DNA of 25,370 nt from Candidatus Thorarchaeota archaeon (GTDB lineage: Archaea > Asgardarchaeota > Thorarchaeia > Thorarchaeales > Thorarchaeaceae): NCBI GenBank assembly GCA_016839605.1, contig JAEOTX010000073.1, positions 1 through 25,370 of the forward strand. The letters run 5' to 3'. The translations under genes and the position numbers were made by a program. Numbering within the stretch: position 1 is the first letter of the stretch; each line of letters starts with the position of its first letter. Below are positions 14,553-16,287 of the stretch, piece after piece. The notes under the pieces were generated by a model. That model had not been told where the DNA came from and ran no database searches. It saw only the letters and a list, made by a program, of their open reading frames with translations.

Positions 14553-14602
14553 AAAAGGGAGTGAGAGTGCTCATGCCATAATAGACACGAGCACGGGCTC
14601 AC
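14553..14602 (-). terminator. Long hairpin followed by TCCCTTTT; probable 3' end of the minus-strand unit, convergent with trmO
   Basis: GTGAG-ccc-GTGCTC-GTGTC-tattat-GGCAT-GAGCAC-t-CTCAC (14602-14561), then a T-tract. Confidence 0.6.
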
Positions 14603-14641
14603 ATGAAGCGCCAAGAAGAAGGAGCTCGTAAAGAGCCAACT

Positions 14642-14740
14642 TCATTGCCCGCGGTTATACTGGTAAGCCCATGCGATGGCTCTTGTTGAGATCTTCTTTC
14701 TCGGTGCCTTCTTCCTCTTCTCATTCTTTGCTATTGCCAT
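14642..14740 (-). CDS. Small Lys/Arg-rich peptide, 32 aa (MAIAKNEKRKKAPRKKISTRAIAWAYQYNRGQ)
   Basis: ATG preceded by A-rich, apparently unpaired AAACAATAAAGGAAGTAGGTAGAC (SD-like). Below the ORF-track cutoff. Confidence 0.5.
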   Translation of the reverse strand: MAIAKNEKRKKAPRKKISTRAIAWAYQYNRGQ

Positions 14741-14755
14741 GTCTACCTACTTCCT

Positions 14756-14902
14756 TTATTGTTTGTACAGGCATGACCAAAACGCTACGCAAGGCCAATC
14801 AGGCCTCCGCGTGTAATCGTGAAAGATCGACTCAAGCGAGTAACGCTTGGCAATACGCCTGGCAATCCGTTTCCACGGATTGCGATTTTTCCTGCCTGTC
14901 AT
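14756..14902 (-). CDS. Possible small basic ORF, 48 aa (MTGRKNRNPWKRIARRIAKRYSLESIFHDYTRRPDWPCVAFWSCLYKQ)
   Basis: GAGGTG SD lies 6 nt upstream of the ATG, but the ORF coincides with a dense RNA structure. Confidence 0.35.
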   Translation of the reverse strand: MTGRKNRNPWKRIARRIAKRYSLESIFHDYTRRPDWPCVAFWSCLYKQ

Positions 14903-14961
14903 TCATTTCACCTCGTGGCTGTTACCGCCCGGTTTCCCGCGCGCTTCCAGTTAACCACGTA

Positions 14962-14987
14962 ATAGTATTACATATTACTATATATAA
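14962..14987 (-). promoter_or_regulatory. TATA box TTATATAT with an overlapping ATAGTA-N8-TACTAT palindrome
   Basis: TATA at 14987-14980 places the TSS near 14960, where the structured region begins. Confidence 0.6.
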
Positions 14988-15181
14988 GTATTGTGGGATG
15001 GTATTATTGTGTCTTCAGGGTGCAGTATGCTGGCAATTTCAGGGGAATCTCAAAACCAATGTTGCGTTTAACGAAAGCAAAAAGTCACTATTGGAGTCCT
15101 CAATATGTGAACCTGTATCGTGAGCCTAGATAGTGACTTCGTATTATATTCTGACTCGGTGTGTTCTCTGAGTGATAGAAG

Positions 15182-15816: not shown

Positions 15817-16287
15817 ATGAGCGAACCAGAACCTATTCTTGCTATCATCTCAGACCTTAAACCCAGGATGAAGAACCTCACAATATCCTTCAAGGTTCTC
15901 TCCAAGGGAGAGGCTCGCGAGGTAACCTCAAGGCATGACGGTGAAACCCACCGTGTTGCAGACATTGTCATTGGAGACTCCAGTGGCATAGTGGTAATGC
16001 CCCTGTGGGATGACTCCATTGAGGCATTAGAGGTTGGCAAGACCTACAAGCTTGAAAATGGATATACTGGACTTTTCCAGAGGAATCTTCGCCTCAACAT
16101 CGGCAGATACGGCGTCGTCAATGAAGCTGAAGAAGCAATTGAAGAAGTCAATGAGGAGAATGATCTCTCAGCGGAAGAGCATGAACGACCACAGAGAAGA
16201 TACGACCGACGCGGTGGCGGAGGCTACGGCGGCGGGGACAGACGTGATGGTGGATATCGAGATCGCGGCCGCGATAGTAGATACTAG
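15817..16287 (+). CDS. ssb: Single-OB-fold single-stranded DNA-binding protein (crenarchaeal SSB / hSSB1-like) with acidic and RG-rich tail
   Basis: ISDLKP, KVLSKGEAREV, VIGDSSG...LWD, LENGYT.LF and LNIGRYG motifs; tail RRGGGGYGGGDRRDGGYRDRGRDSRY. Confidence 0.88.
   Translation: MSEPEPILAIISDLKPRMKNLTISFKVLSKGEAREVTSRHDGETHRVADIVIGDSSGIVVMPLWDDSIEALEVGKTYKLENGYTGLFQRNLRLNIGRYGVVNEAEEAIEEVNEENDLSAEEHERPQRRYDRRGGGGYGGGDRRDGGYRDRGRDSRY

What the first reader, a model, noticed from the sequence alone, without database searches (positions are those of the whole stretch)
14553..14990. Unannotated ~410-nt structured RNA transcription unit between trmO and the wHTH gene
Seen on the minus strand: a TATA box (14987-80) with a predicted TSS near 14960. 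Helices are CGG-GAAA-CCG (14939-30); a perfect 9-bp GCAATCCGT-GGAA-ACGGATTGC (14883-62); CAAGCG/CGCTTG (14849-33); ACGCGGAGGCC/GGCCTTGCGT (14812-14787); ACAGGCA/TGCCTGT (14899-93 with 14773-67), which closes a multi-branch domain; AAGAGCCA/TGGCTCTT (14684-77 with 14638-31); and a 3' hairpin plus T-tract. The GNRA loops on these hairpins read on the minus strand, which supports the orientation. I could not find the RNase P (GAGGAAAGUCC), SRP helix-8 or tmRNA T-arm signatures. Inference: a novel archaeal structured RNA or a dual-function RNA/small-protein locus.
Basis: partly seen in the sequence, partly recalled or inferred. Interest (0 to 1): 0.8.

Follow-up and report, generated by a model that had tools for sequence, protein, structure and literature searches.

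The report
Micropeptide operon mRNA, not structured RNA
The flagged 410 bases are a real minus-strand transcription unit, but it is a messenger RNA for two tiny basic proteins (48 and 32 residues) of an undescribed, multi-copy micropeptide family found only in one family of Asgard (Thor) archaea, not a new structured RNA.

Summary
There is no Rfam match, and RNase P and SRP RNA lie elsewhere in the genome. The 413-nt RNA folds better than shuffles (z -4.4).

The unit is nevertheless coding.
- ORF1 (14756-14902, minus, 48 aa) follows a GAGGTGA Shine-Dalgarno site. It stays open in every homologue (dN/dS 0.35-0.6) and NCBI annotates it as a hypothetical protein in Thorarchaeota MAGs.
- ORF2 (14642-14740, 32 aa) matches a profile found in 69 of 86 genomes of this family and in 0 of 157 other Asgard genomes. 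Copies are 29-36-codon ORFs, mostly behind GGAGGT, with invariant residues spelled by up to six synonymous codons.
- Related genomes carry tandem or four-cistron versions.

The helices inside ORF1 are not conserved (62-74% paired). Orthologues fold like shuffles, with z between -2.4 and +1.2.

Three RNA elements are conserved: a 5'-terminal hairpin abutting the SD, a stem around the ORF2 stop, and a 3' hairpin with compensatory changes followed by a T-tract. These are ordinary mRNA features.

A palindrome, GTAATAnTATTAC, lies between the TATA box and the start site. It recurs at other small-gene promoters.

The peptides' function is unknown. This scan has already noted related Thorarchaeota micropeptide operons on other DNA.

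The parts
14979..14990 (-). BRE/TATA box (AATACTTATATA; TTATATATA at 14987-14979)
   Evidence: Read directly. Conserved in all units and in paralogous promoters.
14959..14971 (-). Operator-like palindrome GTAATACTATTAC between the TATA box and the start site, preceded by a further GTAATA half-site (14977-14972)
   Evidence: Present in every unit. Recurs in the own genome on contig C28 (three tandem copies) and at other small-gene promoters in relatives. The binding protein is inferred, not shown.
14914..14959 (-). 5'-terminal leader hairpin (CGUGG 14959-14955 with CCACG 14918-14914, GAAA-capped apex), ending directly at the SD. The inferred start site is about 14960-14956.
   Evidence: Folds in all 13 promoter-bearing units examined. 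In 10 of them the conserved CGUGG/CCACG stem closes it around a variable interior; in three (G005u, G015u, G011) the outer stem is altered. Helix 1 is 92.9% paired, with GC->AU double changes in 3 sequences. The start site is inferred from TATA spacing.
14908..14914 (-). Shine-Dalgarno site GAGGTGA, 5 nt before the ORF1 ATG
   Evidence: Invariant in all 11 aligned units.
14756..14902 (-). ORF1, a 48-aa basic, Trp-rich micropeptide (A-type; amphipathic RIARRIAKRY helix, ESIYxDY motif)
   Evidence: Open in all homologues. dN/dS 0.35-0.6. No frame-breaking indels. Annotated as a hypothetical protein in Thorarchaeota MAGs. A divergent homologue in G016 shares only protein-level similarity. Its motif links to the first cistron of other operons: hhalign probability 66%, E 5.8e-5.
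14743..14756 (-). Second ribosome-binding region (AAGGAAGTAGGTAG)
   Evidence: Conserved. Replaced by GGAGGA or GGAGGTGA in L028a and L017 at the same position.
14642..14740 (-). ORF2, a 32-aa Lys/Arg-rich micropeptide (C-type: MAIAK..RKK..ISTRAIAWAYQY)
   Evidence: Profile hits in 69 of 86 genomes of the family and 0 of 157 genomes of other Asgard families. Most copies shown are short ORFs behind GGAGGT. Codon position 3 varies twice as much as positions 1 and 2, and invariant S, T and A use 6, 4 and 4 codons. Broken in G011, and the start codon is lost in L028b.
14571..14645 (-). ORF3, a 24-codon frame starting in an ATGA overlap with the ORF2 stop; probably a decayed remnant of the acidic D-type cistron
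   Evidence: Its end (VLVSIMA*) lines up with the D-type ending EEVLLWEAT*, which is encoded in the homologous hairpin. Open in 5 units, broken in G011 and L030b, and not stopped at this place in L028a. Translation is doubtful.
14631..14684 (-). Stem AAGAGCCA/UGGCUCUU enclosing the last 13 codons and the stop of ORF2
   Evidence: 85.9% paired, with 3 pairs changed on both sides.
14553..14602 (-). 3' hairpin (GUGAG..GUGCUCGUGUC / GGCAUGAGCAC..CUCAC) followed by a T-tract (14556-14553); likely terminator and 3' end protection
   Evidence: 95-97% paired, with 2 pairs changed on both sides (GUGUCC/GGACAC in L028). Homologous hairpin plus T-run ends the operons elsewhere.

Best explanation
The locus is a self-contained, minus-strand mRNA of about 400 nt that encodes two micropeptides.

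Anatomy. An archaeal BRE/TATA promoter is followed by a 13-bp palindrome, GTAATACTATTAC, which sits between the TATA box and the start site. This is the position from which a repressor would block polymerase recruitment (inferred). The transcript begins with a stable GAAA-capped hairpin that ends directly at a GAGGTGA Shine-Dalgarno site.
- ORF1 (48 aa) is a cationic, Trp-rich peptide with an amphipathic Arg/Lys helix.
- ORF2 (32 aa, Lys/Arg-rich, ending ISTRAIAWAYQY...) has its own SD.
- A stem wraps the ORF2 stop, and a long hairpin with a T-tract ends the unit convergently with trmO.

Family. ORF2 belongs to a multi-copy micropeptide family restricted to this family of Thorarchaeia. Elsewhere the family sits in coupled A-B-C-D or B-C-D mini-operons. 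The window's unit is an A-C variant with a decayed D cistron.

Shown: coding conservation, SD sites, family distribution, and conserved 5' and 3' RNA stems.

Inferred: the start site, operator function, and what the peptides do. My best guess for function, at roughly 30%, is that they are trans-acting cationic peptides that are exported or act at membranes or transporters. In this genome both MFS_3 transporter paralogues are directly preceded by ORF2-type micro-ORFs. Binding of nucleic acid or ribosomes by the basic peptides is nearly as likely.
For: - ORF1 is open in 7 long and 4 short copies, with no frame-breaking indels.
- ORF1 dN/dS is 0.35-0.6 in 9 of 10 pairs.
- The GAGGTGA site is invariant.
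- NCBI calls ORF1 a hypothetical protein in six Thorarchaeota/Promethearchaeota MAG records.
- G016 carries an ORF1'/ORF2' pair plus hairpin behind the same promoter. Its DNA is too diverged for BLAST beyond the promoter, but the peptides are alike.
- The ORF2 profile hits 69 of 86 family genomes, with up to 10 copies each. It hits 30 of 43 genomes in the family against 0 of 157 in 26 other families of the phylum.
- Most hits shown are 28-32-codon ORFs with GGAGGT a few bases before the ATG.
- Codon position 3 departs from consensus 0.41 of the time, against 0.22 and 0.21 for positions 1 and 2. The invariant Ser uses six codons, including AGY and TCN.
- After duplication, copies decay in a complementary way, so each genome keeps at least one long ORF1, and 7 of 8 keep an intact ORF2.
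- L030 is a four-cistron version under one promoter.
- RNA features: the leader hairpin is in all units, and the 3' stems are 86-97% paired with compensatory changes.
- RNase P RNA and SRP RNA are found elsewhere in the genome.
- Transporter link: ORF2-type micro-ORFs lie directly upstream of both MFS_3 paralogues.
Against:
- Codon periodicity in ORF1 is weak: 20, 16 and 25 variable sites at positions 1, 2 and 3. One close pair has dN/dS above 1.
- ORF1 has no relatives outside a subclade of one genus by direct search: 5 of 86 genomes, and 2 significant representative clusters among 1.84 billion proteins. Its link to other operons rests on a 13-residue motif.
- ORF2 is broken in G011 and lacks a start in L028b, yet the surrounding nucleotides and 3' stems are kept. 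This fits an added RNA-level constraint.
- In this genome ORF1 folds unusually well (z -5.2).
- No fold, family or partner gives a function.
Confidence: 0.82

Rival explanations
1. One reading: a novel ~410-nt structured non-coding RNA with a multi-branch 5' domain closed by ACAGGCA/UGCCUGU, acting as an RNA.
For: z -4.37 for the whole unit and -5.2 for the 5' domain. GNRA-type loops are present. No Rfam match. Nucleotide conservation continues where ORF2 is broken.
Against: The helices inside the 5' domain are 62-74% paired across 11 units, and most variation is loss of pairing. The 9-bp hairpin has one pair kept in only 1 of 11 units. Orthologous 5' domains fold like shuffles. The same stretch keeps an SD-led ORF open in all copies and in a DNA-diverged paralogue. 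ORF2 is under clear protein-level selection family-wide.
Confidence: 0.04
2. Dual-function transcript: an mRNA for ORF1 (and ORF2) whose 3' portion (stem 14684-14631 plus hairpin 14602-14561) is also released as a stable 3'-derived regulatory RNA, or controls ORF2/ORF3 translation.
For: The 3' stems are the best conserved structures, with compensatory changes. They persist in G011 and L028b, where ORF2 is dead. A purine-rich run in ORF2 can pair with the CUCCUUCUUCUU run of the 3' UTR in the MFE fold.
Against: The terminal hairpin is homologous to the hairpin that overlaps the last codons of the D cistron and sits before a T-run in other operons. It is therefore explained as a terminator. The long-range purine/pyrimidine helix is only 69-78% paired (helices 12 and 14). 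No target or processing site is known.
Confidence: 0.1
3. The small ORFs are cis-acting leader or arrest peptides (regulatory uORFs) rather than trans-acting products.
For: The C-terminal dozen residues plus the stop are the most conserved part of ORF2-type peptides. In many copies the stop region doubles as the next SD. ORF2-type ORFs sit directly upstream of both MFS_3 transporter genes in this genome.
Against: In the window nothing lies downstream to regulate. The unit ends in a hairpin and T-tract, convergent with trmO. The operons examined elsewhere end the same way. Several paralogous cistrons in a row are not what an attenuator needs.
Confidence: 0.08
4. A decaying, non-functional duplicate of a micropeptide cassette (a pseudo-operon) that is conserved only because it is young.
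For: The D cistron is reduced to a doubtful 24-codon frame. ORF2 is broken in one orthologue. The cassette at this site is limited to a subclade of the genus and is absent between trmO and MscS in more distant species.
Against: ORF1 and ORF2 are intact, with SDs, promoter and terminator, in species whose units are only 72-80% identical in DNA. dN/dS is below 1. Every genome retains a long ORF1.
Confidence: 0.05

Closest known systems
Multicopy micropeptide mini-operons of Thorarchaeota
   Same: ORF2 is a full-length member of the basic ~30-aa C-type family (MA[IL]AK, K/R-rich middle, IST.AI..Y.Y). It shares SD-led coupled cistrons, a self-contained promoter and hairpin/T terminator, several copies per genome, and the link to MFS transporters.
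   Different: The window's unit starts with a 48-aa A-type peptide that carries a Trp-rich C-terminal extension found only in a subclade of one genus. It lacks the B cistron and an intact acidic D cistron. It also uses another operator (GTAATAnTATTAC instead of GGTTTGTG-N-CACAAACC or GTCAC-N5-GTGAC).
Leaderless multi-peptide bacteriocin operons and PSM-type peptides of Firmicutes (aureocin A70, enterocin L50, garvicin KS, psm-alpha). Comparison from my own knowledge and from the earlier notes, not tested.
   Same: Several tandem genes for 30-50-residue cationic, aromatic-rich peptides without signal sequences. Some paralogues are associated with a transporter gene.
   Different: No sequence similarity. 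ORF2-type peptides are far less hydrophobic. There is no transporter or immunity gene at this locus. No activity data exist, and the host is an archaeon.
Archaeal RNase P RNA (RF00373) and SRP RNA (RF01857), the known RNAs of this size
   Same: Size of 300-400 nt, GNRA-capped hairpins and a strong predicted fold.
   Different: Both are present elsewhere in this genome (158.5 and 91.4 bits). The window has no match to either, nor to any Rfam family.
5'-terminal stabilising stem-loops and hairpin/oligo-T terminators of prokaryotic mRNAs (general knowledge)
   Same: A hairpin at the very 5' end abutting the SD, and a 3' hairpin followed by a T-tract, both conserved with compensatory changes.
   Different: Their effect on stability or termination in Thorarchaeia is untested. 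Archaeal termination generally needs only oligo-T.

Membership tests
Any Rfam 15 RNA family (including RNase P, SRP, tmRNA, riboswitches, C/D sRNAs) | Covariance-model score at or above the family's gathering threshold | tested here: not met
   0 matches in the whole window. The best sub-threshold match is snoZ6 at 17.7 bits against a threshold of 35, E 0.45. RNase P and SRP RNA were found on contigs C46 and C101.
Structured non-coding RNA (generic) | Helices conserved across homologues, with compensatory changes beyond what shuffled columns give | tested here: not met
Internal helices are 62-74% paired. Only the 5' leader and 3' stems pass.
Structured non-coding RNA (generic) | Absence of conserved reading frames | tested here: not met
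   Two SD-led ORFs are conserved.
Thorarchaeial C-type micropeptide family (ORF2) | 29-36-aa ORF with N-terminal MA[IL]AK, a K/R-rich middle, and a C-terminal IST.AI..[AS]Y.Y motif near the stop | tested here: met
   ORF2 scores 73.4 bits (E 7.4e-20) with profile A6, which includes ORF2 itself and 5 orthologues, and 64.3 bits (E 6.6e-17) with the 31-row profile A7. Alignment A7.
Thorarchaeial C-type micropeptide family (ORF2) | Shine-Dalgarno site a few bases upstream of the start codon | tested here: met
   TAGGTAG lies 2 nt before the ATG, within AAGGAAGTAGGTAG. Most family members have GGAGGT(A/G)A.
Thorarchaeial C-type micropeptide family (ORF2) | Protein-level rather than nucleotide-level conservation | tested here: met
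   Codon position variability is 0.22, 0.21 and 0.41. Invariant S, T and A use 6, 4 and 4 synonymous codons.
A-type first cistron (..[TL].[ED]S[IL]Y.[DE][YF]..) | Central ESIYxDY-like motif in a ~35-aa first ORF of the operon | tested here: inconclusive
   ORF1 has ESIFHDY. hhalign of ORF1 copies against A-type ORFs of other operons gives probability 66% and E 5.8e-5 over 13 columns only. The G016 copy is intermediate.
D-type acidic last cistron | 38-40-aa acidic ORF ending EEVL[LM]WEAT*, overlapping the terminal hairpin | tested here: not met
   The window holds only a 24-codon hydrophobic frame ending VLVSIMA*. That frame is broken in G011 and L030b and not stopped at this place in L028a.
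Leaderless multi-peptide bacteriocin / PSM-like systems | Dedicated exporter or immunity gene in the same locus | tested here: not met
   The neighbours are TrmO, a PCI-like wHTH membrane protein and an OB-fold Ssb-like protein. MFS_3 genes adjoin only paralogous ORF2-type genes on C233 and C61.
Leaderless multi-peptide bacteriocin / PSM-like systems | Membrane-active or antimicrobial activity of the mature, unprocessed peptides | not testable with these tools
   Only composition is available (cationic, Trp/Tyr-rich, predicted helices). The AF2 model has pLDDT 62.
RHH (CopG-like) repressor-controlled promoter | A ribbon-helix-helix protein that binds the GTAATAnTATTAC palindrome | tested here: inconclusive
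   A 110-aa gene beside the triple palindrome array on C28 gives only a sub-threshold RHH_1 hit (15.2 bits against 20.5, E 0.021). The locus is conserved in G005. Binding was not tested.

The most novel reading that the evidence does not exclude
The window's A and C peptides belong to a Thorarchaeia-specific peptide system. Dozens of promoter-to-terminator micropeptide cassettes per lineage, switched by a few palindromic operators, would make cationic peptides that are exported by, or tune, lineage-specific MFS transporters. This would be an archaeal counterpart of leaderless bacteriocins or PSMs, or a new class of transporter-modulating microproteins in the closest prokaryotic relatives of eukaryotes.
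Probability: 0.25. Interest if true: 0.7.

Novelty: new variant of a known kind. Interest (0 to 1): 0.42.

Why it matters
As an RNA discovery it does not hold: there is no new structured RNA class here.

What remains is still useful. The gap between trmO and the wHTH gene hides two real genes. One of them, ORF2, belongs to a micropeptide family that matches no Pfam or NCBIfam model. Many of its members are only about 29 codons long, so gene callers may often miss them. The family is confined to one family of Asgard archaea and is present there in up to ten copies per genome.

Such lineage-specific, multi-copy, tightly regulated micropeptide cassettes are unexplored in archaea. They could bear on transport, competition or gene control in the group closest to eukaryotes.

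The case also shows that a strong MFE z-score and neat GNRA hairpins in a single sequence can come from a coding region.

Tried and rejected
- Rfam at gathering and at E<=10: nothing usable.
- tRNA/tmRNA scan: none.
- RNase P or SRP identity: rejected, since both lie elsewhere in the genome.
- Pfam and NCBIfam for ORF1, ORF2 and divergent copies: no family.
- HMMER profile of ORF1 against 1.84 billion representative proteins: only its own orthologue clusters, plus one repetitive 532-aa sequence (P0009) that I judged spurious.
- ESM Atlas look-up of ORF2: no usable hit.
- AlphaFold2 of ORF1 with 7 sequences: three helices at pLDDT 62, too weak for a fold search.
- Complex prediction of ORF1 with ORF2: no verdict, so it counts neither for nor against binding.
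No transcript data were obtained and read laying was not used.
- ORF1 and ORF2 as paralogues of each other: rejected (hhalign probability 1.3%).
I repeated it with references.
- Trp-rich leader peptide for trp genes, RiPP precursor, toxin-antitoxin, and ribosomal protein (eS30/eL41-like): considered from composition only. None has supporting neighbours or a profile match.
Full report
**1. What the sequence shows.**
TTATATATA lies at 14987-14979, and each named helix is at its stated place. The 413-nt RNA from 14965 to 14553 folds at -151.7 kcal/mol with z -4.37. The opposite strand gives z -3.43. No Rfam family matches at gathering score, and matches at E<=10 are noise. ARAGORN finds nothing. 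The genome's own RNase P RNA (158.5 bits) and SRP RNA (91.4 bits) are on other contigs. The locus is therefore neither of the two known archaeal RNAs of this size.

**2. Homologues.**
BLAST finds full-length copies in four other species of the same genus, at 91, 80, 80 and 72% identity, plus a partial copy at a contig end. All sit in the same place next to trmO. Protein look-ups added three more assemblies with the same synteny: MscS, OB/Ssb-like, wHTH, unit(s), TrmO, aminotransferase. The records name the organisms as Thorarchaeota/Promethearchaeota, that is, Asgard archaea. More distant species of the genus have trmO directly beside MscS with no unit between them.

**3. The unit is coding: ORF1.**
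- ORF1 is open in every copy. Seven are 'long' forms of 45-48 aa and four are 'short' 34-aa paralogues.
- The alignment has no frame-breaking indels.
- dN/dS is 0.35-0.6 in nine of ten pairs.
- NCBI already annotates the orthologues as hypothetical proteins.
- Codon periodicity is weak for ORF1 (20, 16 and 25 variable sites), so for this ORF the argument rests mainly on frame retention.

**4. The unit is coding: ORF2 and the arrangement of copies.**
ORF2 (14642-14740, 32 aa) follows a second ribosome-binding region and is conserved in seven units. In related genomes the units are duplicated in informative ways.
- G005 and G015 carry an extra promoter plus long ORF1 upstream of a short-ORF1 plus ORF2 unit.
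- L028 has two complete units, and the duplication even includes a piece of the trmO 3' end.
- L030 has four cistrons under one promoter.
- Each genome keeps at least one long ORF1, and seven of eight keep an intact ORF2. This is what selection on proteins predicts.
- In G016 the same promoter drives a pair of ORFs and a hairpin whose DNA no longer matches by BLAST, while the peptides are recognisably the same.

**5. ORF2 belongs to a large family.**
A profile of seven ORF2 copies hits 69 of 86 genomes of the taxonomic family (14 of 16 genera), with up to ten places per genome and at least four in the window's own genome. Most of the places shown are 28-32-codon ORFs of the form MALAK..KRK..RK.ISTDAITHSY.YR, with GGAGGT(A/G)A a few bases upstream of the ATG.

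A 31-sequence profile hits 30 of 43 genomes of the family but 0 of 157 genomes from 26 other families of the phylum. The matches are therefore not low-complexity noise.

Across the family, codon position 3 departs from the consensus twice as often as positions 1 and 2 (0.41 against 0.22 and 0.21). The invariant Ser, Thr and Ala are written with 6, 4 and 4 different codons.

Typical operons elsewhere have two basic paralogues (B and C) followed by an acidic D peptide ending EEVLLWEAT*. Some are preceded by an A peptide with a THESLYYDY motif. The stop region of one cistron often doubles as the SD of the next. ORF1 shares only the ESIYxDY motif with these A peptides (hhalign 66%, E 5.8e-5) and is unrelated to ORF2. 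By direct search ORF1 is limited to five species, and only its own orthologue clusters come up among 1.84 billion representative proteins.

**6. What is left of the RNA structure.**
On an alignment of 11 units, the four helices inside ORF1 are 62-74% paired, and most changes simply break pairs. One pair of the 'perfect 9-bp' hairpin is kept in 1 of 11 units. The domain-closing ACAGGCA/UGCCUGU helix is 74% paired, with a single double change.

The exceptional stability belongs to this genome's ORF1 alone (z -5.2). Six orthologous ORF1 sequences give -2.4, -0.1, +1.2, -0.4, -0.2 and -2.3. Whole units of G011 and L028b give -1.7 and -0.9.

Three elements are conserved.
- A hairpin at the very 5' end. 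In most units the CGUGG/CCACG stem closes it; the interior varies and is mostly GAAA-capped, and it ends directly at the SD.
- A stem enclosing the end of ORF2, with three pairs changed on both sides.
- A 16-bp terminal hairpin with two compensatory pairs, followed by a T-tract.

The terminal hairpin is homologous to the one that overlaps the last codons of the D cistron in other operons. In the window only a doubtful 24-codon frame remains there, starting in an ATGA overlap with the ORF2 stop. That frame is broken in G011 and L030b and is not stopped at this place in L028a. In G011 ORF2 is broken, and in L028b it has lost its start codon, yet the 3' stems persist. I read this as an RNA-level constraint on the terminator and 3' end, and I keep a modest probability for a further RNA role.

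**7. Regulation.**
The 13-bp palindrome GTAATACTATTAC (14971-14959), with a further GTAATA half-site upstream, lies between the TATA box and the inferred start site in all units. Promoter and palindrome recur, nearly identical, at other loci.
- Three tandem copies lie on own-genome contig C28, next to a divergent 110-aa gene with a sub-threshold RHH_1 match and an 87-aa secreted protein. The locus is conserved in G005.
- In three relatives the same promoter sits in front of another pair of small ORFs, upstream of what I read as a tRNA-like stretch and an eL38-like ORF.

A repressor acting at this palindrome is an inference, and the RHH-like protein is only a candidate. The B-C-D operons and the MFS-linked copies carry different palindromes.

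**8. Function.**
No family, fold or partner was obtained (the complex job gave no verdict). ORF1 has a textbook cationic amphipathic helix (W10, I13, A14, I17, A18, Y21 on one face, Arg/Lys on the other) and a Trp-rich tail. ORF2 is Lys/Arg-rich with a short aromatic C-terminal segment.

In this genome both MFS_3 ('transmembrane secretion effector') paralogues are immediately preceded by ORF2-type micro-ORFs. Earlier notes of this scan on other Thorarchaeota genomes describe a multicopy three-micropeptide operon that shares its switch or operon with a transporter. My own searches reproduce the multicopy and transporter parts of those notes. I therefore lean, weakly, towards trans-acting peptides that are exported by, or act on, membrane transporters. 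Nucleic-acid or ribosome binding is a close second. A cis-acting leader-peptide role is unlikely here, because nothing lies downstream.

**9. Verdict.**
The interpretation as a novel structured RNA fails. The locus is an mRNA for two micropeptides. It is a local A-C variant of an undescribed, Thorarchaeia-restricted, multi-copy micropeptide cassette family, with ordinary mRNA stem-loops at both ends. Expression data could not be obtained.

Noticed in passing
own genome contig C28 = L002:1130-1910 (minus strand for the promoters): Three tandem copies of the same TATA-plus-palindrome promoter lie about 180 nt apart (palindromes at L002 1145, 1326 and 1504). Beside them are a divergent 110-aa gene with a sub-threshold RHH_1 match (1571-1903, +) and an 87-aa secreted protein (728-991, -). 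The middle promoter drives about 150 nt with no convincing ORF (only frames without a Shine-Dalgarno site): a 12-bp 5' stem (GGAAUCUUCAAG/CUUGAAGGUUCC), then CCCUCCUUCUCUCU and a T-tract. This is a candidate small RNA with an anti-SD-like run. The locus is conserved in G005 (L018).
   Followed up: partly
L014, L015, L019 (G001, G002, G015), minus strands: The same promoter and palindrome drive a different conserved pair of small ORFs: 28 aa (M..G...EV.RFECRS..) and about 55 aa (..RDGTV..TVTAHILRNNGGKR.SVY..DKR). By eye, a tRNA-like stretch and an eL38-like ORF lie just downstream. The palindrome may therefore define a small-gene regulon.
   Followed up: partly
own genome C233 (L077:780-1000, minus) and C61:1644-1757 (+): Both MFS_3 transporter paralogues of this genome are directly preceded by ORF2-type micro-ORFs. 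C233 has a B-type plus C-type pair whose stop region supplies the transporter's SD. C61 has a 38-aa ORF with STRAIAYAYAY. Both sit under a different palindrome (GTCAC-N5-GTGAC).
   Followed up: partly
window 15084-15137: An 8-bp inverted repeat, GTCACTAT...ATAGTGAC, separated by 38 nt, lies between the two divergent promoters and upstream of the wHTH membrane gene (start 15182). The surrounding sequence is conserved in L004, L028 and L030.
   Followed up: no
L028:2270-2330: The tandem duplication of the unit in this assembly carried along a fragment of the trmO 3' end (CTCATTTTGTGCTGCG...). This shows that the units multiply by local tandem duplication.
   Followed up: no
window 14756-14902: This genome's ORF1 mRNA folds far better than shuffles (z -5.2, including a perfect 9-bp GGAA-capped hairpin across codons 7-15), while the long-form orthologues reach at most z -2.4 and four fold like shuffles. 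This is a lineage-specific mRNA structure of unknown meaning.
   Followed up: yes
window 14671-15123 (+): A 150-codon plus-strand ORF lies antisense to the operon and promoter. I take it to be a chance frame; I did not search it for homologues.
   Followed up: no
window 15817-16287 (+): An OB-fold Ssb-like protein (PF21473) with a C-terminal Arg/Gly/Tyr-rich (RGG-like) tail. It keeps constant synteny with the wHTH gene and the micropeptide unit.
   Followed up: no
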